From: Dolichospermum sp. OTE_75_concoct_329_sub
GTDB taxonomy: Bacteria > Cyanobacteriota > Cyanobacteriia > Cyanobacteriales > Nostocaceae
Length of the DNA stretch: 64,000 nt
NCBI GenBank assembly: GCA_031376645.1
Contig: JANMEE010000036.1
Location: forward strand, 8,239 to 72,238
Reading direction: 5' to 3'
Position numbers and translations under genes: made by a program. The notes under the pieces are model-generated. The model ran no database searches. It saw only the letters and a list, made by a program, of their open reading frames with translations, and was not told the DNA's origin. Positions 28,824-42,092 of the stretch are shown here, piece by piece. Each line of letters begins with the position of its first letter. The first letter of the stretch is position 1.

Positions 28824-29149
28824 AATCAATTTTTTAAAGAATATTGTTGGTAAATAGGGGGTATTACTCCCTATTAATATTTTTTATCAGGCTACGCCCC
28901 GCTTCGCTAACTCTGGGCAGGCTAGAAGCCCACCCCACAATAAGTATAATATTCTTGTGGGGTGGGCATCCTGCCCGCCCATATTATATTTAATTATGCC
29001 TACCTACTTAAGAAAAGGGTTTCGTAGCTTTTAATGATAAAACTAAAAAGTAAAAATCCAGTTAGAATTTATACTTTTTGAAATAACCGTAAGAGTTATA
29101 ATAAAGCAAAATTCAAGTTAAAATACTAACTAGAATTCAAGTTAATAAT

Positions 29150-29467
29150 ATGACCCAAATAACATCAAAAAAAGTAGTAAGAAGAGGGAGAATTTTTCCT
29201 GAACTAACTATATCACCAGAAGAATTAGCTAGAAGAGAAGCAGAAGATGAAATATTTTATCAGCGTTGTCTGGCAATCTTTGAGCGTGTACGTCCTGAAT
29301 ATATCGAAAGTCACTATGGTTGGTATATTGCTGTAGAACCAAATAGTAGAGAATATTTAATTGATAAGGATAGGATGCAAGCTCATAAAAGGATGTTAGA
29401 AAAATATTCTCAAGCTAGACACTTTGTTTTTTGTTTGAATGAAACGGGTACAACTGGCACGATATGA
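29150..29467 (+). CDS. Small protein (DUF5678-like), partner of the downstream aspartic protease, copy 1
   Basis: YGWYIAVEPNS.EY motif; ATGA overlap with the protease; near-identical paralog at 30754. Confidence 0.7.
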   Translation: MTQITSKKVVRRGRIFPELTISPEELARREAEDEIFYQRCLAIFERVRPEYIESHYGWYIAVEPNSREYLIDKDRMQAHKRMLEKYSQARHFVFCLNETGTTGTI

Positions 29468-29661
29468 TAGATGTAGATGGTTATTTTGGAGATAATGGGG
29501 AAATATTTTTTGAGATTGAACTAGTCACTAATGATGAGTTAAATCTTCCTGTAGATGCTCTATTTGATACGGGTTTTGCAGGTTTTATGGCTATTAATAC
29601 ACAAGATTTAGATGAATTAGAATGGGTGTATAGTGGTGAGGAAACATTATTCTTTACCTAG
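29464..29661 (+). pseudogene. Truncated clan AA (retropepsin-like) aspartic protease, copy 1
   Basis: ALFDTGF catalytic motif; ends after 65 aa, about half the length of its paralog. Confidence 0.75.
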
Positions 29662-29762
29662 TAATAATTCGTAGGTTTGGTTAAGCGAAGCGCAACCCAA
29701 CGCAATAACATTATTTGGCGATATTTATCTAAGGTATCCATAAACAAATTCTATAAAAACCT

Positions 29763-30077
29763 ATGCCTACTCAAATTAATGCTCCTCCTGCGGTTGATTA
29801 TGCACCTCTGGAATTACAAGGGGAATTAATTGCTATGCAAGAATTAACGATTGAGAAATTATTAACTATTGCTCAAAGTCAAATTACAGAAAGTCAGCAA
29901 GAATTACATTTTCAACTTTTAGAAAAAAATCCAAATAATCAATTAAGTGAATCTGATAGGTTATTGTTGAAATCGTTGCGGGTGAGTGCTGATTATTTAA
30001 TGTTAAAAAAAGCTTATGCATAAGCACTTTTAAAGTGGCAAGGGTTTTCTCTTCCAGATTTTGAGCAATTAGTATAA
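29763..30077 (+). pseudogene. Small hypothetical (antitoxin-like) gene with premature stop
   Basis: ...KKAYA*ALLKWQGFSLPDFEQLV: coding-like frame continues past TAA 30021-30023 to a stop at 30075-30077. Confidence 0.6.
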
Positions 30078-30092
30078 TACCAGTATCATCTT

Positions 30093-30674
30093 TTACTTAC
30101 TTAAATTTGTAGGAAAAGTAACATCTTCATAAACATCAGTGAGAGAACAAGAAAAATTCACACTGGTTAATTCTAATTGTTGATTTCCTCTATAACTATA
30201 AAGAACCCATCTTCCTTCAGAATTGCGCCGAAAACAATCAATTCTTTGACGATTTTGACTAACTAAAACATATTCTTGTAAAGTGTCTAATTCTTGATAA
30301 TCACTAAATTTATCACCTCTATCTAAGGCTTCTGTAGAAGGTGATAAAACTTCAATGATTAAACTCGGATATCGTTTAAAATATTCAAATTGTGTATCTC
30401 TTGAATCGCAAGTTACCATAATATCAGGATAATAGAAAATATCTAGAGATTCAATTCTCGCTTTCATATCAGCAACGTAAATACGGCATCCTGTACCACG
30501 AATATGATTTCTTAAAAGGGCAACTAAATTAGCAGTAATTGTTACATGAGCATCACTAGCACCAGCCATTGCGTAAATTTGCCCTTGGATATATTCATGT
30601 TTAATAGGGCTAGATTTTTCAGCTTCTAAATATTCTTCTGGGGAAAGATAGGAGTGAGATTTATTAAGAGTCAT
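30093..30674 (-). CDS. Uma2-family endonuclease-like protein
   Basis: KHEYIQG, YYPDIMV, IIEVLSPST...DRGDKF..Y...TLQEYVLV. Confidence 0.9.
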   Translation of the reverse strand: MTLNKSHSYLSPEEYLEAEKSSPIKHEYIQGQIYAMAGASDAHVTITANLVALLRNHIRGTGCRIYVADMKARIESLDIFYYPDIMVTCDSRDTQFEYFKRYPSLIIEVLSPSTEALDRGDKFSDYQELDTLQEYVLVSQNRQRIDCFRRNSEGRWVLYSYRGNQQLELTSVNFSCSLTDVYEDVTFPTNLSK

Positions 30675-30753
30675 ATCAGAAAATTATTATATTGATTATT
30701 TAGATGATATCATATATTGTGTTAGAATGTTATTTATAATTGAAGTTAAAAAT

Positions 30754-31071
30754 ATGACTCACATAACATCAAAAAAAGTAGTAAGAAGAGGAAGAATTTT
30801 TCCTGAATTGACTATATCACCAGAAGAATTAGCTAGACGAGAAGCGGAAGATGAAATATTTTATCAGCATTGTCGAGCAATTTTTGAGCGTGTTCGTCAT
30901 CAATATATTGAAAGTCATTATGGTTGGTATATTGCCATAGAACCAAATAGTGGGGAATACTTTCTTGATCAAGATAATATTCAAGCTCATAAAAAAGTCC
31001 TTGAGAAATACCCAAAGGCTAAGAATTATGTGTTTTGCTTAAACGAAACAGGAACGACTGGGAGAATATGA
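30754..31071 (+). CDS. Small protein (DUF5678-like), copy 2
   Basis: 105-aa paralog of 29150-29467 (MTHITSKKVVRRGRIFPEL...); ATG at 30754 lies inside the tracked ORF 30727. Confidence 0.7.
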   Translation: MTHITSKKVVRRGRIFPELTISPEELARREAEDEIFYQHCRAIFERVRHQYIESHYGWYIAIEPNSGEYFLDQDNIQAHKKVLEKYPKAKNYVFCLNETGTTGRI

Positions 31072-31431
31072 TTGAGGGAAATTTTGGTAGGGAGGGGCAG
31101 CTATTTTTTGAGCTTGATTTTGATTACTGCTGATGGATTAAATCTACCTGTGGATGCGATGTTAGATACAGGATTTACCAAGTTTATGGCAATTAATACT
31201 CAAGATTTGGATGGACTTGATTGGGTTTTTCTTGGTAATGAACATAAGCAAACAGCACAAGGTGAATCAAGGTTTAATATCTATTTAGGTAAGGTAATAT
31301 TGGATGGTAAGGAATATGAAATTCCTGTTGATATGGGGGATAATATTACAGAAGTTTTATTAGGTTCTGAGTGGTTGAAGTTTTTGCGTTTGGTGGTGGA
31401 TTTTCCAAAAAGTATTTTGACTTTGGGATAA
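31068..31431 (+). pseudogene. Clan AA aspartic protease, copy 2, +1 frameshift
   Basis: ATG 31068 gives MIEGNFGREGQLFFELD; one extra T in the run at 31118-31121; the frame resumes LITADGLNLPVDAMLDTGF...EVLLGSEWL. Confidence 0.8.
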
Positions 31432-31507
31432 TTTTTTATTTCGCGCAAAGTAAGAAAAGTAAGAAAAGTATCATAAAATATATACAGGATAAATAGCAGA
31501 ATAAATC

Positions 31508-31747
31508 ATGAATGCTTACAAGACTTATATCACGATTGAAGACCCGAAGCAGGTAGTTTTATCTGATTTACCTTTTCAAGTTGGACAGCGTGTGGAGATT
31601 ATTGTTTTAGCTGAAGATAACCCGCAAGTTACGATGAGTAATAAATTGCGGAATTTATTTGATAAAACTCAGGCTATTCCTGGTGTGGAAGAGGTTACAG
31701 AGGAGGATATAGCCGCAGAAATTGAAGCTTATCGGCGTGGGAAATGA
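31508..31747 (+). CDS. Putative antitoxin of a PIN-family TA module
   Basis: 79 aa, C-terminal EEDIAAEIEAYRR, ATGA overlap with the PIN gene. Confidence 0.7.
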   Translation: MNAYKTYITIEDPKQVVLSDLPFQVGQRVEIIVLAEDNPQVTMSNKLRNLFDKTQAIPGVEEVTEEDIAAEIEAYRRGK

Positions 31748-31968
31748 AAGTTATTATTGATACTAATGTTTTAGTTTCTGCTGTTCTCAAGGGGAGAGAA
31801 CCAAGGGATGTTATTCAATTTGTTGTGGATAGTCCTAATTGTGATTGGGTTGTTTCTGAGGAAATTTTAGCAGAGTATCAGGATGTGTTAAGTCGGAAGA
31901 AGTTTAAGTTAACTGATGAAGTCAGAAAAGAATGGTTATTAGAGGATAGGTTTTTTGTGTCATGGTAG
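31744..31968 (+). pseudogene. 3'-truncated PIN-domain toxin
   Basis: MKVIIDTNVLVSA...SEEILAEY; stops at 74 aa versus 138 aa for the intact paralog-type gene at 38718. Confidence 0.8.
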
Positions 31969-32017
31969 TTTATTAAGTATTAATAGATGAAAATCCTGTA
32001 AATCTTGATTCAGAAAT

Positions 32018-32350
32018 CTAAACCGATGCAAAACCTGTAAACTGTCTGACATAAGGTGATCTAAAACCTAAAACAATATCCGTTTTCGGTACACCTAACT
32101 CTACTAATTGATGAGGAATTCCTTCTTCGGTAAAATCCCTTTCAATCCAGATTTTACCATCTTTAATACTAATATGAATGGGACAACCATAAATTCTATT
32201 TTCGTCTTTCCATCCTGTATACAACAGTAAATAAATATCCCGTTCAGTATCAAAAACAATTTCTGTATTTTCTAAATCTTCCTCTGCTTGGTCTTTTGCA
32301 TATTTAGAGATAATATCTTTTACTATCTCTTGATAATTTAAGGTTTCCAT
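32018..32350 (-). CDS. xisI: XisI family protein
   Basis: IVFDTERD.YLL...GW...RIYG..IH..IKDGKIWIE.D.TEEGI...L...GVPKTDIVLGF. Confidence 0.9.
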   Translation of the reverse strand: METLNYQEIVKDIISKYAKDQAEEDLENTEIVFDTERDIYLLLYTGWKDENRIYGCPIHISIKDGKIWIERDFTEEGIPHQLVELGVPKTDIVLGFRSPYVRQFTGFASV

Positions 32351-32757
32351 AACACTATTTCTTCCTTATTAATGTCAAAAACTAATAATTTAATTTCATA
32401 AGTTTGTAAAACAGTTTGAATGAAACTATCAGTAAAAAACTCTTGATATATGTCTTGAGATATAGCTAAATATAATATTCTTTCAGAGTCTTGTTGTCCT
32501 AATGCTATCCTATAATTTAAAAATTGACCAATAGCTGTATGAAATTAAGAAATTGCTGAAAGTCCTAGAAAACTTTTTACTTCCACCGCTATCTTTTGAT
32601 GATCTTTCTCAGCGCCAATTAACTTTTCTGCTCCTAAATCTATCCTAATTTTAACTAATGCGGTTAGGCGCAAATATAAAGGATCATCAGTAATTTGCCA
32701 ATTCTCCTTTTCTAAGGCTATTTTAACTGTATTGTGAAAAATATCTTTCGCTGACAT
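32338..32757 (-). pseudogene. xisH: XisH family protein with nonsense mutation
   Basis: MSAKDIFH...KIAVEVKSFLGLSAIS*FHTAIGQFLNY...; TAA at 32547-32545 where the intact paralog has E; frame continues to a stop overlapping xisI. Confidence 0.88.
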
Positions 32758-32930
32758 AAAAATTTAAAGTGATATTTTATCTTAGATAATACCTTATTTT
32801 TTAAGTAATGGCTCTGTATTATATTTGTAAGTAGGGTTAAGCTGCATCGCAACCCAACGCAATCAAATTATAAAAATGTTGGGTTATGCCTACGGTACGC
32901 TACGCGAACGTTTCTCAACCCAACCTACAA

Positions 32931-33260
32931 CTAACCCACTGCAAAACCAGTAAATTCCCTCACAAAAGGAGATTTAAAACCTAAAACTATATCGGTTTTT
33001 GGTACTCCTAATTCTACCAGTTCACTAGCTACACCTTCTTCAGTTAAATCTCGCTGAATCCAGATTTTTCCATCTCTAATATCTACATGAATAACTGTAC
33101 CATAAGCCCTTTCGTTATTCTGCCATCCTACATGAACTACTAAATAACTATTTCTTTCACAATCAAAAATTAACTCCTTTTCTGTTCCTTCTGATCTATG
33201 ATTTTCGGTATGTCTTGCTAACACGGTTTTTACTAATTCAGGATAATTCATTCCTTCCAT
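32931..33260 (-). CDS. xisI: XisI family protein
   Basis: Same motifs; start overlaps the xisH stop. Confidence 0.9.
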   Translation of the reverse strand: MEGMNYPELVKTVLARHTENHRSEGTEKELIFDCERNSYLVVHVGWQNNERAYGTVIHVDIRDGKIWIQRDLTEEGVASELVELGVPKTDIVLGFKSPFVREFTGFAVG

Positions 33261-33664
33261 AAAACAATCTCCTGTTTAATAATTTCAAAAATCAATAATT
33301 TTAATTTATGTTCAGCAATTATTTCTTGAATAAAGGGAATTAGAAAAAACTCTTTGTATATGTCATTACCAATTGCTAAATATAAGATACGGTTGGGTTC
33401 TTTTTTTCTTAAAACAGTACGATAATTAAGTGTTTGTCCTAAAGCTGTGTGAAATTCAGTAACTTCAGATTGTCCTAAAAAAGATTTTACCTCAACTGCT
33501 ATTTTTTGACCTTCTTTTTCTGCTCCTAAAAGTCTTTCTGCTCCTAAGTCAATTCTAAAGTCAAGACCATCTACTGTAAATGATAAAGGATCATTAGTAA
33601 TTAACCAATTATCTTTTTCTAAAGCTAACCTAACTGCATTGTGAAAAAAGTCTTTTGCTGACAT
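33248..33664 (-). CDS. xisH: XisH family protein (PD-(D/E)XK-like), intact
   Basis: MSAKDFFH, IDLGAE, KIAVEVKSF, FHTALGQ.LNY, RILYLAI. Confidence 0.92.
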   Translation of the reverse strand: MSAKDFFHNAVRLALEKDNWLITNDPLSFTVDGLDFRIDLGAERLLGAEKEGQKIAVEVKSFLGQSEVTEFHTALGQTLNYRTVLRKKEPNRILYLAIGNDIYKEFFLIPFIQEIIAEHKLKLLIFEIIKQEIVLWKE

Positions 33665-33793
33665 ACAAACTTACAATAACACCCTCCACCCCATTATATA
33701 GGAATCCGGTTTGATTCTTGAAAAGATACGTAGGGTGTGTTAGCGATCGCGTAACGCACCAAACTCTTGATAATGGTACGTTACGTATTTTAT
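33582..33793. repeat. About 212-bp direct repeat, copy A (copy B at 36871-37082)
   Basis: Near-identical at offset 3289; contains the xisH 5' end, its upstream region and the left half of a family-C repeat. Confidence 0.9.
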
Positions 33794-34094
33794 GCTGACG
33801 TACTCTACAATGATACAATACATGGTGGTGTATTAATTTGGGAATTTACAAAAAGCCCTGGCGATTAGAAATTGCGGCTATACAAACGAAGTCCACCTTC
33901 GTGGACTAAAAATAAGATTTTTGAACCCGCGAAGGCGGGTTTTGTCTGTGTAGATGTGAATTATATTCGCCTAGTTATAAAGACTTTTTGTTAAATTTTA
34001 TTAATAACTGATAATTTAAGGATCTATGTTATAATGTGTTTTCTATAAATTAATTCATGTCTTTAAATAAAACATAATCTTGATTAAATAAATA

Positions 34095-35597
34095 ATGAAA
34101 TCTATTGTTAAACAATTAAGTCTATTTGAATTAGAATTGACAAAAACAAATCCTGAAAAAATAGTATTACCAAAAGGCTATAAAGGATTAGCTGCTTTTC
34201 ATAAATATTGGGGTAAAAAACCAATTGAATGTTTAGCATTTTTAATTGAAAACTTAACAGAAAAAGGTGATATTGTTTTAGATCCATTTTTAGGATCAGG
34301 TTTAGTTGCTCGTGAAGCAGTAATTAGAGAAAGACGATTTATAGGTATTGACATTAATCCTGTAGCTGTAGAATTATCGAATTTATTAGTAAATTTACCA
34401 AATCCAGATATTTTAAAAAAAGCCCTTGATGAATTAGAAATAAGTGTTAAATCAGAAATATATAAAACTTACTTACTAGAAGATGGAAAATTTGCAACTC
34501 ACTATTTATGGCATGGAAATGAACTAAATTCAGTTTGGCATTTATCGCCAAGAAGAAATGAAAGTGATAAAAGGATACCAACTAATTATGACTATCAAGT
34601 ATTTAAACAATTTGAGGGATACGAACCTAAAATACCTCGACCAATTAAGTTATTTCAAAATAGCCGTATAAATACAAATGATACTTTAACACTAAAAGAT
34701 TTATTTACTGGTCGTGCGTTACATAATATAGATTTGTTGCTTAATGCAATTCACAAACAACCAGATTCTATTAAATCTGCATTATTGCTATCATTAACTG
34801 CTGCTTCTGGTCAAATGTCTAAGATGGTTTTTGCAATTACAGGAAGAGGTAAAACAAAATCTGAACCAACAAATAAAATAGAAGTTGGTAGTTGGGTGAT
34901 AGGATATTGGCGACCAACGTTACATTTTGAAATTAATGTGTGGAATTGTTTTATTAAACGTGCAAATAGTTTACTAAAATCTATTCAAGAAGATGAATTT
35001 AAAAAAGGTTATTGTGTATCTAAAAGATTAACAGATGTTATTGACAATAAAGCAGATGTAGCAATTTTCCAAGGTGATAATCGAAAAGTTCTTAATAATT
35101 GCCCTGATGAAACTATTTCTTTGATATTAACTGATCCACCACATAGTGATAGGATTCCATACTTAGAATTGAGTGAAATGTGGAATTGTTTAATAGATAA
35201 AGAGCCGGATTTTTCTCAAGAAATTGTAGTTTCTAATGCTCGTAGTCGAGGGAAGAATAAAAACAATTATGTGAATGAAATGATGGAATTTATGCAAACT
35301 GCTACTCGTATCCTGAAACCTAGTGGAATATTAGCTCTATTTTTTAATGCGAGAGATGCTGATAGTTGGAAGTTCTTAAAAGAGGTAATACCATCTGATA
35401 ATCAATTACAATTTCGTGGATTATTTCCTATGAATTATTCAGCTAATTCAGTAATTCAAGATAGCAGAAAGGGAGGTTTAAAAAATGATTTCGTTTTAAT
35501 CTATCAAAAACCTGGAAATGAAGATAATATAAAATTGATATTATTAGAAAAATTACCTAATTGGTCTAAAGAAATACCTAATATTCACTCAAAATAA
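34095..35597 (+). CDS. Amino (N6-A/N4-C) DNA methyltransferase, alpha-type motif order
   Basis: HKYWGKKP; motif I VLDPFLGSG near the N-terminus; motif IV LILTDPPH near residue 345. Confidence 0.85.
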   Translation: MKSIVKQLSLFELELTKTNPEKIVLPKGYKGLAAFHKYWGKKPIECLAFLIENLTEKGDIVLDPFLGSGLVAREAVIRERRFIGIDINPVAVELSNLLVNLPNPDILKKALDELEISVKSEIYKTYLLEDGKFATHYLWHGNELNSVWHLSPRRNESDKRIPTNYDYQVFKQFEGYEPKIPRPIKLFQNSRINTNDTLTLKDLFTGRALHNIDLLLNAIHKQPDSIKSALLLSLTAASGQMSKMVFAITGRGKTKSEPTNKIEVGSWVIGYWRPTLHFEINVWNCFIKRANSLLKSIQEDEFKKGYCVSKRLTDVIDNKADVAIFQGDNRKVLNNCPDETISLILTDPPHSDRIPYLELSEMWNCLIDKEPDFSQEIVVSNARSRGKNKNNYVNEMMEFMQTATRILKPSGILALFFNARDADSWKFLKEVIPSDNQLQFRGLFPMNYSANSVIQDSRKGGLKNDFVLIYQKPGNEDNIKLILLEKLPNWSKEIPNIHSK

Positions 35598-35617
35598 TCT
35601 TAAATCTGCAAAATAAA

Positions 35618-36712
35618 ATGAGTTACACCTTTTCTCAACTTTCTCGGCTCTATGATGAAAATAAATTTTTTGAATTAACATCATCTCCTGAAGGATTATA
35701 TTTTTTAAAATTACGTTCTTTGGCTCGAAAAGATTATTATTTGCATTTATTTCAAAAAGCACAAATATCTTCAGATAATTTAGGAGTAAAGCAGTACCTT
35801 GAAACACTTTTTAAATCTAATATTTCTTTAGAAACTATTCATGATTCTATTAATCAAATATATGAAATACAAAGAGAAGAACGTCGCATACATGAGCAAT
35901 ATTTACTAGCAGAATTATATAAACTAAGAGTTTTTGACTGGGGTGGTATCCATCAAAATGATATTAATAAGTATCTAGTTGATAACTACATCAAAAAGAT
36001 TACTAATTATGATAATTTAATAGAAAAAGTAGAAAATGAAATTTTACATAGTTTAAAAGGTTTTGTTTTGTGTTCTTGGTATAATAATTGGACATCAATT
36101 ATTATTGAGGATATTTTTAAAGATCATCAGCGTGTTTTACCAACTGTGGGGCTAATTAAACAAGTTGATTTTTTTATTAATGATATACCTTTTGATCTCA
36201 AGGTAACTTATTTTCCAAAAGGTTTTATGGAAAATGAGAGAAGGAAAAGAAAACTAATAATTAAGGAATTATCAGAGTTAAAGAAGACAGCCAAAATATT
36301 TAATCTTCCTTTTGATCAAAATCGTCCTGATGATGAACTATTGATTGATTTGATTACAGCTTTTACTGAAAGTTCCCAGCAGAATGTAAAAGATTTTTAT
36401 GATAATTTTGTGAAAATTAGAAGAGATATTATCAACGACATATTAAAACAACCTCGTGAACTTTTGCGCTGGTTGTATGAAAATCAAGGTTCTCAAAGAT
36501 TTGATGCAAGTAATAGGTTATTTTTAGTTCTTGTGGATACTAATTCTTTAGAAGATAGTTGGAAGCTAAAAAGAGATTATAGTTTGTTAAAAAATAAAAT
36601 TGATGAATATCTAAATACACGCTCTTTTAATAAGGATAAACTGTTATTAAGTTGGAATTTTAATAACAATGAATATCACAGTTATGCTGATGTTTTGTTT
36701 ATTATGAAGTAA
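35618..36712 (+). CDS. Putative Type II restriction endonuclease (PD-(D/E)XK)
   Basis: Directly downstream of the MTase; VDFFINDIPFDLKVT fits a D-x(n)-D-x-K nuclease motif; very AT-rich. Specificity unknown. Confidence 0.6.
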   Translation: MSYTFSQLSRLYDENKFFELTSSPEGLYFLKLRSLARKDYYLHLFQKAQISSDNLGVKQYLETLFKSNISLETIHDSINQIYEIQREERRIHEQYLLAELYKLRVFDWGGIHQNDINKYLVDNYIKKITNYDNLIEKVENEILHSLKGFVLCSWYNNWTSIIIEDIFKDHQRVLPTVGLIKQVDFFINDIPFDLKVTYFPKGFMENERRKRKLIIKELSELKKTAKIFNLPFDQNRPDDELLIDLITAFTESSQQNVKDFYDNFVKIRRDIINDILKQPRELLRWLYENQGSQRFDASNRLFLVLVDTNSLEDSWKLKRDYSLLKNKIDEYLNTRSFNKDKLLLSWNFNNNEYHSYADVLFIMK

Positions 36713-36819
36713 CCACTTCCTCTAATATACCTCTAAGATACAAGGTTGGGTTAAGCTGCAACTCAACGCAATAAAATTATCAAAATGTTGGGTTTCGTTC
36801 CTCAACCCAACCTACATAA

Positions 36820-36953
36820 CATAACTACCTTATAATTCAAAAACTGACCAATAGCTCAGTAAGTTCAAAAGATAAAGGATCATGAGTAATTAACCAATTA
36901 TCTTTTTCTAAAGCTAACCTAACTGCATTATGAAAAAAGTCTTTTGCTGACAT
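36820..36953 (-). pseudogene. xisH: XisH remnant with internal deletion
   Basis: MSAKDFFHNAVRLALEKDNWLITHDPLSFELTE joined to AIGQFLNYKVV-like sequence, then repeat DNA. Confidence 0.75.
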
Positions 36954-37082
36954 ACAAACTTACAATAACACCCTCCATCCCATTATATAGGAATCCGGTT
37001 TGATTCTTGAAAAGATACGTAGGGTGTGTTAGCGATCGCGTAACGCACCAAAATCTTGACAATGGTACGTTACTTATTTTAT
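36871..37082. repeat. About 212-bp direct repeat, copy B
   Basis: See 33582-33793. Confidence 0.9.
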
Positions 37083-37106
37083 ACTAACTTAACCTACAAT
37101 ACATAG

Positions 37107-38327
37107 TGTTTTTCTATTGAGATTGTTAGCAAACTGCTACAAATTCCCGAATCTGTAATTGAAGAAATAGAAGATGGTCAAATTGAAAAATACTGGCAAG
37201 AGATTTACGGAATGCTTTGCATTTATGGAAAGCCAGTTCATGAAATATTTGAAGACTTTTTTGAAAATAATCAAAATTATGAGATACATGATGTACCCAA
37301 AACTAAATATGCTAATTATGTCATAGACTGCATTAAGCTTATTAAGCAGTTACATGGTAGACCTATTCATTTGTCAAGTCTGCCTTTAGCAAGAGGTAAA
37401 CAAAACGGTAAGTCAATCAATTTTTCAGATGAAAATTCTGGACAGAAGCAAAGGTCTGTTAAAAAAGCTGTACCGACTGTCTTAGAAACTAGAGCGCACA
37501 ATTTAATTCATAAAAATAATCTTTTTAAACTACCTATTAATGTCTATCAACTAGCAACTAATCTAGGCATAAAGGTATTTTTTGAAAGTTTACCTAATGA
37601 TTTATATGACTTAAGGGGATTCTGTTATAAAGAGGATAATTTTAGTATTATAGGTATAAATCGGAAACATCATACTGTACTTCAAAGATTTACTATAGCT
37701 CATGAACTACATCATCTAATATATGACTTAAATGATAATAGATTTTTGTGTGGTACACATAATGAAAATAAAATCATAGAATTAAATGCAGAAAATTTTG
37801 CGGCTGAACTCTTAATGCCAAAACCCCTAGTACAAAAGCTAGTTTCTCATCCACCGAATATTCATTATTTAACTGTTAATCTAGTAGCAAAGCATTTTGG
37901 AGTTAGTTACGAAGCAGCAGCAATTAGACTTGAGAAGTTTAATTTAATTCCTAGCGCATCTCAAGTTTGCAAACAATCATATAGACGTGAAGATAAACAA
38001 AAAACGGAATTTTTACTTAAGAATAAACTTAAATATCTAATTGCAGTATTTGGTCTAGAAACTGGTATTGAAGAAATACAAATTGATAGAAAAATTAGTA
38101 ACCATTCAGTTTGTGGTGCTGTTATAAATGACCATACTCACACAGTTTGTTGGCATTGTGGTTTGGAAATTCAAGAACCTAAACATAATGAAATTTATTT
38201 AAAGAATCCATATCGACAAGATGCGGTAAATATATCTTCTAATAAGAAAATTTCTTCTTTCGAGCAGAAAAAAGGTGAAAAAACCGATAATGAACATGAA
38301 CAATTATCACTCAATTTAAGAATTTAA
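37107..38327 (+). CDS. ImmA/IrrE-family metallopeptidase with 5'-truncated XRE-type HTH and C-terminal Zn-ribbon-like motif
   Basis: RFTIAHELHH (HExxH), ELNAENFAAELLMP, VAKHFGVSYEAAAIRL. Frame is open upstream of ATG 37212 to a TAG at 37104 and encodes SIEIVSKLLQIPESVIEEIEDG; C-terminal H..CG...CWHCG. Confidence 0.85.
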   Translation, partial: CFSIEIVSKLLQIPESVIEEIEDGQIEKYWQEIYGMLCIYGKPVHEIFEDFFENNQNYEIHDVPKTKYANYVIDCIKLIKQLHGRPIHLSSLPLARGKQNGKSINFSDENSGQKQRSVKKAVPTVLETRAHNLIHKNNLFKLPINVYQLATNLGIKVFFESLPNDLYDLRGFCYKEDNFSIIGINRKHHTVLQRFTIAHELHHLIYDLNDNRFLCGTHNENKIIELNAENFAAELLMPKPLVQKLVSHPPNIHYLTVNLVAKHFGVSYEAAAIRLEKFNLIPSASQVCKQSYRREDKQKTEFLLKNKLKYLIAVFGLETGIEEIQIDRKISNHSVCGAVINDHTHTVCWHCGLEIQEPKHNEIYLKNPYRQDAVNISSNKKISSFEQKKGEKTDNEHEQLSLNLRI

Positions 38328-38360
38328 CTAAACTTGATAATTACTATTGTGATTTGTAAT

Positions 38361-38690
38361 CTAAACCGATGCAAAATCAGTAAACTGTCTCATATAAAGT
38401 GGCTTAAAACCTAAAACAATATCCGTTTTTGGTACTCCCAATTCTAGCAACTCACTAGCTACCCCTTCCTCTGTAAAATATCTCTGAATCCAAATTTTTC
38501 CATCTCTAATATCTACATGAATAATTGTCCCATAAGCCCTTTCATTATTTTCCCATCCTACATGAACTACTAAATAACTATTTCTTTCACAATCAAAAAT
38601 TAACTCCTTTTCTGTGACTTTGGAAGCATGATTTTCTGTATGTCTTCCTAATACAGTTTTTACCAATTCAGGATAATTCATTCCTTCCAT
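38361..38690 (-). CDS. xisI: Orphan XisI family protein
   Basis: Close paralog of 32931-33260; no xisH upstream. Confidence 0.9.
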   Translation of the reverse strand: MEGMNYPELVKTVLGRHTENHASKVTEKELIFDCERNSYLVVHVGWENNERAYGTIIHVDIRDGKIWIQRYFTEEGVASELLELGVPKTDIVLGFKPLYMRQFTDFASV

Positions 38691-38717
38691 AAAATAATTA
38701 AATAATATAAGTATAAT

Positions 38718-39134
38718 TTAATCAAGGTTGAGAAAGTCTCTCGGAGTAATGATCTGATTTTGGTATTCGACTAGAGTTTTAAGTGATAAAAGGTCTTGAT
38801 CTCCTGTGATCAAAAATTCTGCGTTGGCATCTTTTGCTAGTTCTAAAAATTTGTTATCATCTGGATCTCTACAGATATCTATTTGAGTCTTAATTTCTAT
38901 AAATTGGCTGTATTTTTTGACAACTTTTAAAAAATCTTGTCGTTCTTCATCTGAGATATATTTATTGAATTTAGGTTTATAAATTCGTGTTTTTAATTCT
39001 TGATAAGTTTCCTCACTTTGAGCTATTTTAAATTGTTTATAGGCTTTATCTAGGGCTTTACTGGCTGTTCCATCTGGACTGAGTGCAGCACTAAGTAAAA
39101 CATTGGTATCAATGACAATTAGTTTATGATTCAT
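38718..39134 (-). CDS. PIN-domain toxin (putative TA system, intact)
   Basis: VIDTNVLLSA, SEETYQEL, CRDPDDNKFLELA, ITGDQDLL. Confidence 0.9.
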   Translation of the reverse strand: MNHKLIVIDTNVLLSAALSPDGTASKALDKAYKQFKIAQSEETYQELKTRIYKPKFNKYISDEERQDFLKVVKKYSQFIEIKTQIDICRDPDDNKFLELAKDANAEFLITGDQDLLSLKTLVEYQNQIITPRDFLNLD

Positions 39135-39351
39135 CAGCTAATAATTCTTCTAAAATTTCTTCTGTAAGTCCTTTTGCTTGAGCGTTTTTACCAATTCTAT
39201 CAAAAACAGTAAGTAAATCCTCTTCTTGATTTTTGGGTGAGTTTATCTTTATTTGTTGGATAATTTCTTCTTGTTCTTGTGCTGGAAGTTGTAACACAAT
39301 ATTAAGAATTTGCTCAAAGCTTAGAGGAAGTGGATATGTTTTTTGTGTCAT
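39124..39351 (-). CDS. Putative antitoxin of the PIN toxin
   Basis: Likely start MTQKTYPL at 39351 (the tracked extension to 39501 is repeat DNA); C-terminal KGLTEEILEELLADES; overlaps the toxin start. Confidence 0.7.
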   Translation of the reverse strand: MTQKTYPLPLSFEQILNIVLQLPAQEQEEIIQQIKINSPKNQEEDLLTVFDRIGKNAQAKGLTEEILEELLADES

Positions 39352-39535
39352 AGTAATTTTAGCGATCTCGTTTGCGTAGCGTGTCGTAGGCATAGAGTAG
39401 ACGCAAAGGAACAAAGAAAAAATGCAAATACCTTGCATCCTATTATATCCTCTCTCCGTGCCTCTGCGCCTCTGCGTGAGAAAAAAAAGGGATAAGCCCA
39501 AAAGCCTATCCCCAAAAAATCAACTAAAAGATCAA

Positions 39536-40822
<1,287 letters not shown>

Positions 40823-41431
40823 CTAAAAAATGAAACAGGTTTATAAACCTTTACGTACTTTAACAATATTTTCTGACAAGTAGCTATATTTTCTGGTAAA
40901 TACCCATGCCAATTTTTTAGAAAAGTAAAGTACAGGGGTAATTCATGATTTCGACTAAAGATGAAACACCAAGTGAAACGTCTCATGGCTATGCTTAATT
41001 CCTTATATGGTGAGTATATGCTCAAAGCGGTTTAATCATTTGATTATATAGTAGGGGTTTAGCACTGCTAAACCCCTACACGTCTAGCTTTTTCATAAGC
41101 CTCTAAAAGTCCATATTTTAACCGTGCTGAGTGTAATTCATTAAATCAATGAAGCCAAAGTTTGCATCAACAGCTTAGATTCCTTACCCATTTGACTTTG
41201 TAATAAAATTAGATTTTATGGCTAAATTAAAGAGCTAATTGGATTAATGACGTGCAGTTATTAAATTCTCAGGACGAGTTTTCCACAAGTGCAACATCAG
41301 ATACTGAAATTATCAAGATTTTTTCGTCACATTACCCTTTTTCCCGTTAGGAAAGAAAATCGTAGAGGCGTTTAATATAACGTCTTTGCGTTTTTGTATA
41401 TTCATCTATCAAGCAACTTCTTCTGTGAGCG

Positions 41432-41803
41432 GTGATTTTTGATGATTCTCTTGCCATATTAGTAAATTTGTACTATACTATCAAAATAGTCTTAAAACCT
41501 GAAAAGACTTCTGGAACACGGATTTTAAGGGATATTTCTATGATGAAGCATTATATTCTCAATCTTAACCCCACCGCCAAGCATGAATGGGATCGTTGTA
41601 TTATCCGTGATCCTCTTACCGCAAAACGTCCAGATATAGCTAAATTAATTTCCGAAGCCGTAGGAGCAGAAACAGGTAGCTATTTAGTCAGTGTAAATAT
41701 TGAAGTCACAGTATTACAAGAAGCATCCACACCATCACCAGAACAACTTTCTCTACCGTTTCCAGAAGTATCTGTACCCACCCAACTGCGCGAAGCAGCA
41801 TAA
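41432..41803 (+). CDS. Conserved cyanobacterial hypothetical protein
   Basis: AKHEWDRCI.RDP...YLV.VNIEV motif; likely start MMKHYIL at about 41500. Confidence 0.65.
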   Translation: MIFDDSLAILVNLYYTIKIVLKPEKTSGTRILRDISMMKHYILNLNPTAKHEWDRCIIRDPLTAKRPDIAKLISEAVGAETGSYLVSVNIEVTVLQEASTPSPEQLSLPFPEVSVPTQLREAA

Positions 41804-42092
41804 TAGTAGGTTGGGTTGACGTAAGGAAACCCAACTCCATTAATTCCGATAATTAACAAAAAAGCCCAAGCAGATTCTACACTTAATAATAGCACAAAAA
41901 GTCAAGGAGATTTATCAATCCTGTAAAAACGTATTTCCGTTAACTTATTGACAGCATTATCAATAAATTTGAGAATATAGACTACTTATTCTCAATAAAC
42001 ATCAACTTCCTCAATTTTGTAGAAATTTCCATTTAAAAAACTTATATGTTTCAAGTAACGATAAGTTCCTTCTTCTCGTTTTCTCTCGTTCT

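What the first reader, a model, noticed from the sequence alone, without database searches (positions are those of the whole stretch)
37083..38327. XRE-HTH / ImmA-IrrE peptidase / Zn-ribbon gene next to the RM cassette, decapitated at the repeat junction
Seen: HExxH peptidase; 35 open codons upstream of the first ATG encode HTH helices 2-4, but helix 1 and the start codon are missing right at the end of direct repeat B; C-terminal tail with H..CG..CWHCG. Established: ImmA/IrrE/CapP peptidases cleave XRE repressors (ImmR, DdrO, CapH) to induce prophage, ICE or defence genes after DNA damage. Inference: a single-chain sensor-repressor with an extra Zn-ribbon that once controlled this island; loss of the HTH would deregulate it or leave a trans-acting protease.
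Basis: partly seen in the sequence, partly recalled or inferred. Interest (0 to 1): 0.62.

Follow-up and report, generated by a model that had tools for sequence, protein, structure and literature searches.

The report
Beheaded repressor-protease gene remnant
A cyanobacterial gene for a fused DNA-binding repressor and zinc protease lost its first 30 codons, its promoter and its partner gene in a rearrangement, so it is an orphaned remnant and not the controller of the restriction-modification genes next to it.

Summary
Window 37107-38327 is open for 406 codons, with the first ATG at 37212. It encodes an M78 (ImmA/IrrE) peptidase with an intact HExxH motif and a conserved Cys-bearing C-terminal domain. 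Near-identical orthologs (98% aa, e.g. Anabaena sp. CRKS33) are 436 aa. They carry 30 more N-terminal residues, including HTH helix 1. Homology to them begins at 37109, exactly where a 242-bp copy of the xisH 5'/upstream segment ends (37108).

In all 24 loci with enough flank, the intact gene is paired with a divergently transcribed orphan gene of about 230 aa. It is never paired with an RM system. That partner, the intergenic control region and the first 92 nt of the regulator are missing from the window. The RM cassette lies directly beside ahcY in three other genera that lack this gene.

The ORF is therefore an orphaned remnant of a rare, uncharacterised two-gene module. The module resembles RosmerTA and ImmR/ImmA, but has an extra invariant four-cysteine site. 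The truncation looks recent, because the ORF has no stops or frameshifts. Residual activity as an HTH-less protease cannot be excluded.

The parts
33578..33827 (-). Direct repeat copy A: the first 87 nt of intact xisH-2 (33248-33664) plus about 163 nt of its upstream region
   Evidence: XisH Pfam E 1.4e-53
33858..33945 (.). 88-bp element with two hairpins, terminator-like. In the intact loci L001 and L009 it lies immediately 3' of the partner gene. It is probably the left end of the lost module. The left breakpoint is 33945|33946, with TGT microhomology to the RM block.
33946..36713 (+). Type II RM cassette: methyltransferase 34095-35597 (N6_N4_Mtase) and putative endonuclease 35618-36712. It occupies the place where the partner gene lies in intact loci. 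The same block directly abuts ahcY in three other genera.
36736..36825 (.). MITE-like short dispersed repeat. Other copies lie at 29692-29714 and 32849-32885. Its depth in metagenomes is very high.
36825..36953 (-). xisH pseudogene remnant. The first 29 codons are intact (36867-36953). An internal deletion and a stop follow.
36867..37108 (-). Direct repeat copy B: xisH 5' end plus its upstream region. Its right end is the breakpoint.
37056..37085 (+). Promoter-like site TTGACA-18-TATACT (11 of 12) inside repeat B, pointing into the truncated gene. This is a consensus match only.
37107..37211 (+). 35 open codons with no start codon. They correspond to residues 31-65 of the intact protein: HTH helices 2 and 3 and half of helix 4.
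37212..38327 (+). Longest startable ORF (371 aa): rest of the HTH/linker, M78 peptidase domain and Cys-bearing C-terminal domain
37557..37934 (+). Peptidase_M78 domain. HExxH lies at 37701-37715. The invariant downstream Glu residues lie at 37791-37793 and 37806-37808.
37749..38159 (+). Span holding the four invariant cysteines: C215 (37749-37751), C336 (38112-38114), C348 (38148-38150) and C351 (38157-38159). This is a candidate Cys4 metal site.
38361..38690 (-). xisI-3, which has no xisH beside it. The same sequence follows the intact regulator in Anabaena sp. CRKS33, so the right flank of the module is conserved.

Best explanation
Window 37107-38327 is the 3' 93% of a regulator gene from a small, conserved two-gene module. 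The module consists of a divergently transcribed orphan gene of about 230 aa and a protein of about 430 aa. That protein has an XRE helix-turn-helix, an M78 (ImmA/IrrE-type) zinc peptidase and a C-terminal domain with invariant cysteines.

In this genome, illegitimate recombination joined a copy of the xisH 5'/upstream segment to codon 31 of the regulator. The partner gene, the intergenic control region of about 285 bp, the start codon and HTH helix 1 are gone. In their place lie an RM cassette, a MITE-like repeat and an xisH remnant.

The remaining ORF cannot make a DNA-binding repressor, because the first usable ATG (37212) falls in HTH helix 4. It has no cognate partner and has no demonstrable functional tie to the RM cassette. 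It is most likely a recent, not yet decayed pseudogene.

Inferred, not shown: in the intact module the HTH represses the divergent promoters, and the peptidase domain inactivates the repressor, or releases the partner, in response to a signal. The Cys4 metal site may read that signal. This would resemble ImmR/ImmA, CapH/CapP or the RmrA antitoxin of RosmerTA.
For: Truncation.
- P0001 is 98% identical, is 436 aa long and has 30 extra N-terminal residues.
- DNA homology to L001 and L009 (97.2%) starts at 37109. Repeat B ends at 37108.
- tblastn finds residues 32-436 only, and finds no partner anywhere in the 64 kb.

The module.
- A homologous partner lies upstream and divergent in all 24 loci with flank. 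These include a gammaproteobacterial MAG and a frameshifted copy in L010.
- The partner family has only 28 representatives among 1.84 billion proteins. It has no Pfam, PDB or PADLOC hit.

No tie to the RM cassette.
- The RM block 33943-36713 abuts ahcY in L025, L026 and L027.
- Neighbours of 13 module loci show no recurrent RM or defence genes.

The junction is real. An independent contig covers 37023-38523 with 0 mismatches.

The truncated allele is rare. The 371-aa product is on record on 1 contig, against 16 contigs for intact P0001.

Family kinship.
- Pfam M78 matches at E 8e-21.
- PADLOC capP matches at 5e-26 and RmrA at 1e-16.
- Foldseek finds CapP 7t5t, then IrrE/PprI, then PrpR.

A perfect 12-13-nt palindrome, TTAAGATAAAAA..TTTTTATCTTAA, lies about 70 bp upstream of the intact gene in L001 and L009. 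It is a candidate operator.
Against: - The remnant shows no decay: no stop codon and no frameshift. All catalytic residues and cysteines are intact. Window-specific substitutions are 9 synonymous to 3 nonsynonymous outside the junction codon, a ratio no worse than in the intact lineages.
- A strong promoter-like hexamer pair in repeat B points into the gene. Expression of an HTH-less protease from ATG 37212 is therefore not excluded.
- The order of events that produced the mosaic is unresolved. The 88-bp element left of the RM cassette suggests that the RM cassette replaced the partner. The conserved RM-ahcY adjacency suggests instead that the remnant was inserted between R and ahcY.
- The function of the intact module is inferred only from domain homology and gene order.
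- The AlphaFold model of the partner is poor (pLDDT 49.5).
Confidence: 0.75

Rival explanations
1. The remnant is a domesticated, still functional HTH-less protease. It would be transcribed from the promoter-like site in repeat B and translated from ATG 37212. The 371-aa M78 plus Cys-domain protein would act in trans on some XRE repressor or other substrate, as the stand-alone proteases ImmA, IrrE and CapP do.
For: - The ORF is intact, and HExxH, both Glu residues and all four Cys are kept.
- Window-specific changes are 9 synonymous to 3 nonsynonymous.
- TTGACA-18-TATACT lies at 37056-37085 on the + strand.
- Repeats A and B differ by about 5%. If B was copied from A in situ, the junction would be old and the intact ORF would need explaining.
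- PADLOC capP scores 4e-26 on the 371-aa product.
Against: - The allele is rare: 1 contig on record against 16 for the intact one.
- No RNA contig crosses the junction. The metatranscriptome contigs all belong to the intact allele.
- ATG 37212 lies inside HTH helix 4 and has no obvious ribosome-binding site.
- The number of promoter-like hits in the region is not above the shuffled expectation (27 against 31.2).
- The substitutions may predate the truncation, and 12 changes give no statistical power.
- Repeat B may come from another xisH paralog, so its divergence does not date the event.
Confidence: 0.15
2. The gene was the damage-sensing repressor-protease that controlled the RM / XisHI / TA island, and losing the HTH deregulated that island.
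For: It lies physically next to an RM cassette and several TA-like genes. C-proteins of RM systems are XRE-type HTH proteins, and C.BclI and C.AhdI are among the structural matches to the HTH.
Against: - The RM block sits directly beside ahcY, without this gene, in three genera.
- No RM or defence gene recurs next to 13 homologous loci.
- The strictly conserved neighbour is the orphan partner gene.
- In the close relatives L001 and L009 the intact gene lies in a different locus without any RM.
Confidence: 0.04
3. The junction is an assembly chimera made through the 95%-identical xisH-upstream repeats, and the real genome has an intact gene.
For: The breakpoint sits at the end of a repeat. High-copy repeats break the short-read unitigs between 36813 and 37023.
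Against: - An independent Logan contig spans 37023-38523 without a mismatch. It includes variants specific to copy B and the junction itself.
- The sequence to the right of the junction is not repeated, so no shared k-mer could cause a false join.
- Depth is similar on both sides, 9.6 against 10.6.
- The missing 5' end and the partner are nowhere in the window.
Confidence: 0.03

Closest known systems
RmrA antitoxin of RosmerTA (Millman et al. 2022, bioRxiv 10.1101/2022.05.11.491447; Ernits et al. 2023, PMC10440598)
   Same: Both are single chains with an N-terminal XRE HTH followed by an ImmA/M78 peptidase. Both are paired with a partner of unknown fold that varies between systems. PADLOC RmrA profiles align over aa 20-324 of the intact ortholog (E 3.7e-18) and over the peptidase part of the window ORF (E 1e-16).
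   Different: - The partner hits no RmrT profile.
- The genes are divergent, not in an operon.
- There is an extra conserved C-terminal domain of about 120 aa with invariant Cys.
- No toxicity or defence has been tested.
- In the window the partner and the HTH are missing altogether.
CapP / CapH of CBASS (PDB 7t5t, 7t5u)
   Same: CapP is the best profile match (capP E 5e-26) and the best structural match (7t5t, E 5.5e-5). The logic is the same: a protease inactivates an XRE repressor.
   Different: CapP and CapH are two separate proteins next to a CBASS operon. Here HTH and protease are fused, no CBASS genes are nearby, and CapP lacks the Cys-bearing tail.
ImmA / ImmR (ICEBs1) and IrrE(PprI) / DdrO (Deinococcus)
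   Same: The M78 fold and HExxH+E catalytic set are shared. PDB 3dti and 8sln are structural hits, and DdrO and ImmR are sequence hits to the HTH.
   Different: Those are two-protein systems that control mobile-element or DNA-repair regulons. IrrE has a GAF-like sensor domain instead of the Cys domain. Nothing here shows a link to DNA damage.
PrpR / RamB (ScfR) regulators of Mycobacterium (PDB 6cz6; PMC6765138)
   Same: The architecture is HTH + M78-like + C-terminal extension. In PrpR, three Cys of a C-terminal CX2CX4C motif plus one distal Cys hold a [4Fe4S] cluster. Here there are likewise three C-terminal Cys (C-X11-C-X2-C) plus one distal invariant Cys. PrpR appears among the Foldseek hits.
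   Different: PrpR has lost HExxH and is not a protease, while this family keeps HExxH in all 42 members. The Cys spacing differs. No GAF domain or CoA pocket has been shown. There is no sequence-level match to PrpR.

Membership tests
Peptidase M78 (ImmA/IrrE, Pfam PF06114, COG2856) | Profile match above the curated cut-off | tested here: met
   74.5 bits against a cut-off of 22, E 8.3e-21, aa 151-276 of the window frame
Peptidase M78 (ImmA/IrrE, Pfam PF06114, COG2856) | HExxH motif plus downstream Glu metal ligand | tested here: met
   H199, E200, H203, E229 and E234 are present in the window and invariant in 42 homologs
Peptidase M78 (ImmA/IrrE, Pfam PF06114, COG2856) | Proteolytic activity on an XRE repressor | not testable with these tools
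   Needs a cleavage assay
XRE-family HTH regulator | Complete five-helix HTH_3/HTH_25/HTH_31 domain with a start codon | tested here: not met
   The window frame gives no HTH hit. Helix 1 and the start codon are absent. Intact orthologs do hit HTH_25, HTH_31 and HTH_3.
RosmerTA (RmrT + RmrA) | RmrA-type antitoxin (HTH + M78 peptidase) | tested here: inconclusive
   RmrA profiles match (E 1e-16), but only over the peptidase part in the window. The match is full length in ortholog P0001. capP scores better than RmrA.
RosmerTA (RmrT + RmrA) | Adjacent RmrT toxin gene | tested here: not met
   There is no partner in the window. The orthologs' partner hits no PADLOC profile at E <= 0.1, and it is divergent rather than co-oriented.
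RosmerTA (RmrT + RmrA) | Partner toxic, neutralised by the regulator; phage defence | not testable with these tools
   Needs expression and plaque assays
CapH/CapP-regulated CBASS | Separate CapH repressor and a CBASS operon next to the protease | tested here: not met
   No CBASS or CapH genes were found among the window ORFs or among the neighbours of 13 homologous loci.
RM controller (C-protein) system | Regulator conserved together with the R and M genes | tested here: not met
   The RM cassette occurs without the regulator in L025-L027. The regulator family occurs without RM in 13 loci.
Zinc-ribbon (Cys4 / Cys3His knuckle pair) | Two CxxC/CxxH knuckles in the C-terminal tail | tested here: inconclusive
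The tail has only one CxxC (C348, C351) plus a single Cys (C336). The fourth invariant Cys (C215) is in the peptidase domain. Pfam Zn_ribbon_3 reaches only E 0.17, in one homolog.
ScfR (PrpR/RamB) Fe-S regulators | CX2CX4C motif plus distal Cys binding [4Fe4S]; HExxH lost | tested here: not met
   The spacing here is C-X11-C-X2-C and HExxH is retained. The similarity is structural only, Foldseek E about 0.03. Features taken from PMC6765138.

The most novel reading that the evidence does not exclude
The intact family, of which this ORF is a beheaded copy, may be a previously undescribed self-contained switch. In it a single-chain XRE repressor / M78 protease would carry a Cys4 metal or iron-sulfur site built from three tail cysteines and one peptidase-domain cysteine. 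That site would gate self-cleavage and so control a divergent orphan effector gene with an acidic tail. This would amount to a redox- or metal-sensing relative of RosmerTA and ImmR/ImmA. In this genome, the HTH-less remnant might additionally be kept as a trans-acting protease driven by the captured xisH-upstream promoter.
Probability: 0.15. Interest if true: 0.6.

Novelty: new variant of a known kind. Interest (0 to 1): 0.3.

Why it matters
For this window, the result is mainly a correction. The ORF should be annotated as a 5'-truncated remnant (pseudogene candidate) of an XRE-M78 regulator, not as the regulator of the adjacent RM system.

It also gives a clean, base-pair-resolved example of how TA and defence islands in Nostocales are scrambled by illegitimate joins at short repeats.

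The wider value is the family that it exposes:
- It is a rare module, mostly cyanobacterial.
- The gene pairing is strict.
- All 42 members keep an active-site-competent M78 peptidase.
- It has an invariant four-cysteine site reminiscent of the Fe-S site of PrpR.
- Its partner has no detectable relatives of known function.

If the partner is a toxin or effector, this would extend the RosmerTA/ImmA 'protease-antitoxin' theme to a new architecture, possibly with a metal or redox input.

Tried and rejected
1. Assembly artefact. Rejected: an independent contig crosses the junction.

2. RM cassette as the cognate regulated unit. Rejected by synteny.

3. Identifying the partner. Pfam, PADLOC, a PDB profile search and an AlphaFold model all gave nothing usable. 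The model had pLDDT 49.5, so no fold search was run on it.

4. Finding the same junction or the xisH-upstream segment elsewhere.
- Exact searches of genome contigs found nothing.
- A 37-mer search of metagenome contigs found nothing.
- A 20-mer found only a 27-nt dispersed motif in unrelated contexts, not linked to xisH.
The history of repeat B therefore could not be traced.

5. RNA evidence for the truncated allele. Metatranscriptome contigs all derive from the intact allele.

6. Rfam. No RNA family matched in 29000-42000.

7. Phage or plasmid origin. No full-length relatives were found in either collection, only distant M78 domains.

8. A single-event model for the mosaic (simple insertion, inversion, or circle integration). 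None fits all three junctions, so the order of events is left open.

9. Relaxed-selection test. With only 12 lineage-specific changes it has no power.

Full report
**1. What is in the sequence**

On the + strand, the frame containing 37212-38327 is closed by TAG at 37104-37106 and then stays open to the stop at 38325-38327. The first ATG/GTG/TTG is ATG 37212, so 35 sense codons precede it.

Pfam finds one domain, Peptidase_M78, at E 8.3e-21 over aa 151-276 of the 406-codon frame. NCBIfam gives only a sub-threshold match to the 'spr1629 family repressor/antitoxin'. HExxH is H199-E200-H203 at 37701-37715. No HTH profile matches the window frame.

**2. Is it truncated?**

A protein search returned 43 full-length relatives of 406-439 aa, almost all cyanobacterial. 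The closest, P0001, is 98% identical and 436 aa long. It starts MLAEIKTECSKKNLKNKDVGCRLQKARQSGNF, followed by SIEIVSKLLQ. The window frame begins CF-SIEIVSKLLQ.

P0001 hits HTH_25, and other members hit HTH_3, HTH_31 and HTH_19. In a confident AlphaFold model of P0001 (pLDDT 82.6, pTM 0.85) the HTH helices are 11-29, 34-41, 45-52, 60-70 and 74-78. The window frame therefore lacks helix 1, and a product started at ATG 37212 (residue 66) would lack the recognition helix as well.

Of 42 aligned homologs, 41 have helix 1. The one exception (P0037, 387 aa) is a start-site call, because the ORF in its locus L014 is 410 codons long.

**3. The breakpoint**

The direct repeat has two copies: copy A at 33578-33827 and copy B at 36867-37108. 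They are about 95% identical and differ by one 8-bp indel. The repeat consists of the first 87 nt of xisH plus its upstream region. To the left of copy B, xisH is only a remnant: 29 good codons, then a deletion and a stop.

DNA homology to the intact loci starts at 37109. L001 is a metagenome contig, and L009 is Anabaena sp. CRKS33 LJOT01000005.1. Both are 97.2% identical over 1221 nt. The join is therefore 37108|37109, with at most 1 nt of microhomology.

An independent 1501-nt Logan contig from a freshwater-sediment metagenome matches 37023-38523 without a difference. Its depth (10.6) is close to that of the RM cassette contig (9.6). The junction is real.

The truncated 371-aa product is on record on that single contig only. 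Intact P0001 is on 16 contigs.

**4. What was lost**

In every locus with enough flank, the regulator is preceded by a divergently transcribed gene of 206-266 aa, across an intergenic region of about 150-285 bp. This holds for L001-L008, ten genome loci L009-L018, and L019-L024. These upstream genes are homologous to one another. tblastn finds the gene in all 24 loci, including a frameshifted copy in the low-coverage contig L010 and a copy in a gammaproteobacterial MAG.

An exhaustive profile search finds only 28 representatives of this partner family among 1.84 billion proteins. The partner has no Pfam, PADLOC or PDB relative. Its AlphaFold model is poor (pLDDT 49.5).

Recognisable features of the partner are:
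- a segment resembling a winged helix (LLAILR..P.TKKELA);
- a conserved YxYHGPDxPQ strand-turn;
- an acidic tail (..D.PDDEMD).

The window holds no trace of this gene or of the regulator's first 31 codons.

The left limit of homology to the intact loci is an 88-bp double-hairpin element at 33858-33945. In L001 and L009 this element lies just 3' of the partner gene. Between 33946 and 37108 the window carries 3163 bp where Anabaena sp. CRKS33 carries 1190 bp. The 3163 bp comprise the RM cassette, a MITE-like repeat, the xisH remnant and repeat B. The 1190 bp comprise the partner, the intergenic region and 92 nt of the regulator.

**5. Relation to the RM cassette**

The R protein has relatives in many phyla. 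In Dolichospermum sp. FACHB-1091 (96% nt identity), Sphaerospermopsis kisseleviana NIES-73 and a Nostoc MAG, the block 33943-36713 is followed after about 14 nt by the ahcY terminator region (window 39482 onward). RM beside ahcY is therefore the older arrangement.

Window 36714-39481 is specific to this lineage. It contains the MITE-like repeat, the xisH remnant, repeat B, the beheaded regulator, xisI-3 and a PIN/antitoxin pair.

Scanning 114 neighbouring ORFs from 13 module loci shows no recurrent RM or defence family. There are three PIN genes, three Uma2 genes and otherwise housekeeping genes. The regulator did not control the RM cassette.

I could not find a single event that explains all three novel junctions (88 bp|RM, R|MITE, repeat B|regulator). 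The region between about 29.7 kb and 39.5 kb is a patchwork of TA-like modules: Uma2, VapBC-like, two and a half XisHI pairs, RM and PIN. The same pieces occur in other orders in L001 and L009.

**6. What the intact protein resembles**

PADLOC gives capP (E 5e-26) and sixteen RmrA profiles, the best aligned over aa 20-324 of P0001. Foldseek ranks CapP (7t5t), then PprI/IrrE, then M. tuberculosis PrpR. The HTH matches C-proteins, DdrO, SinR and CapH.

RosmerTA is described as an antitoxin with a Zn-peptidase plus a toxin of unknown function. RmrA often has an N-terminal HTH, and its toxins are diverse.

The family differs from RmrA in two ways. It has a well-ordered C-terminal extension (aa 314-405, pLDDT above 90). 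It also has four invariant cysteines: one in the peptidase domain (RFLCG) and three in the tail (C-X11-CWxC). This pattern of three tail cysteines plus one distal cysteine recalls the [4Fe4S] site of PrpR. PrpR, however, has lost HExxH, while all 42 members here keep it. 'Zn-ribbon' is thus a reasonable but unproven label.

No full-length member is found in the phage or plasmid collections.

A perfect palindrome lies about 70 bp upstream of the intact gene in L001 and L009 and is a candidate operator.

Metatranscriptome contigs show that the intact allele is transcribed in freshwater communities. None crosses the truncated junction.

**7. State of the remnant**

The remnant has no stop codon and no frameshift. 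All catalytic and Cys residues are kept. Window-specific substitutions are 9 synonymous and 3 nonsynonymous outside the junction codon, similar to the intact lineages (13:5 and 9:8). Either the truncation is recent, or the product is still useful.

A TTGACA-18-TATACT site at 37056-37085 in repeat B points into the gene. Promoter-like sites in the region are not more frequent than in shuffled sequence. I rate 'recent pseudogene' at about 0.75 and 'functional HTH-less protease' at about 0.15.

**8. Verdict**

The domain reading is right. The regulatory story about the RM island is not supported. The feature in the window is an ordinary product of island scrambling. The modest interest lies in the uncharacterised, strictly paired module that it derives from.

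Noticed in passing
window 33943-36713 and 39482-40833; L025, L026, L027: The type II RM cassette (N6_N4 methyltransferase plus a 364-aa endonuclease candidate with no Pfam match) lies directly beside the S-adenosylhomocysteine hydrolase gene ahcY in three other Nostocales genera. R homologs of 40-58% identity occur in Armatimonadota, Spirochaetota, Chloroflexi and a Methanosarcinales MAG.
   Followed up: partly
window 29742-30090 | 30091-30676; L001 2489-2838 and 5905-6490: The 104-aa gene and the Uma2 gene are adjacent in the window. In the metagenome relative L001 they are separated by 3.07 kb (HNH gene, 88-bp element, partner, regulator). In Anabaena sp. CRKS33 they are separated by a larger island. 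This looks like an insertion hot spot, and the module moves as a unit.
   Followed up: partly
window 31939-31971 and 39329-39359: A 31-nt direct repeat (87% identical) holds the start of the PIN-associated antitoxin gene (MTQKTYPL, minus strand). The copy at 31941-31971 truncates the PIN gene 31744-31968 to 74 aa, against 137 aa in L009. This is another illegitimate junction in the same island.
   Followed up: partly
window 32018-33664, 36825-36953, 38361-38690: The region holds several XisI/XisH copies: one intact pair (32931-33664), one pair with a disrupted xisH (32018-32757), one xisH stump (36825-36953) and one lone xisI (38361-38690).
   Followed up: partly
window 33694-33723 and 36983-37012: A 27-nt core, TATAGGAATCCGGTTTGATTCTTGAAA, lies inside both repeat copies. 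It occurs exactly in 28 otherwise unrelated metagenome contigs and is not linked to xisH or xisI there. It may be a short dispersed repeat or a conserved regulatory motif of cyanobacteria. A HIP1 site (GCGATCGC) lies just downstream.
   Followed up: partly
window 36736-36825 (also 29692-29714, 32849-32885); L025 430-507, L026 4194-4272: A MITE-like element carrying GGTTGGGTT...AACCCAAC hairpins reaches depths of 250-4600x in metagenome and metatranscriptome contigs. It lies to the left of the RM cassette in L025 and L026, but to the right of it in the window.
   Followed up: partly
window 30093-30674: The Uma2-family protein matches the PADLOC candidate defence family PDC-S03 (E 3e-30).
   Followed up: no
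L001 4270-4298; L009 7814-7841: A perfect 12-13-nt inverted repeat, TTAAGATAAAAA(N2-5)TTTTTATCTTAA, lies in the divergent intergenic region of the intact module. It is a candidate operator, and the window has lost it.
   Followed up: no
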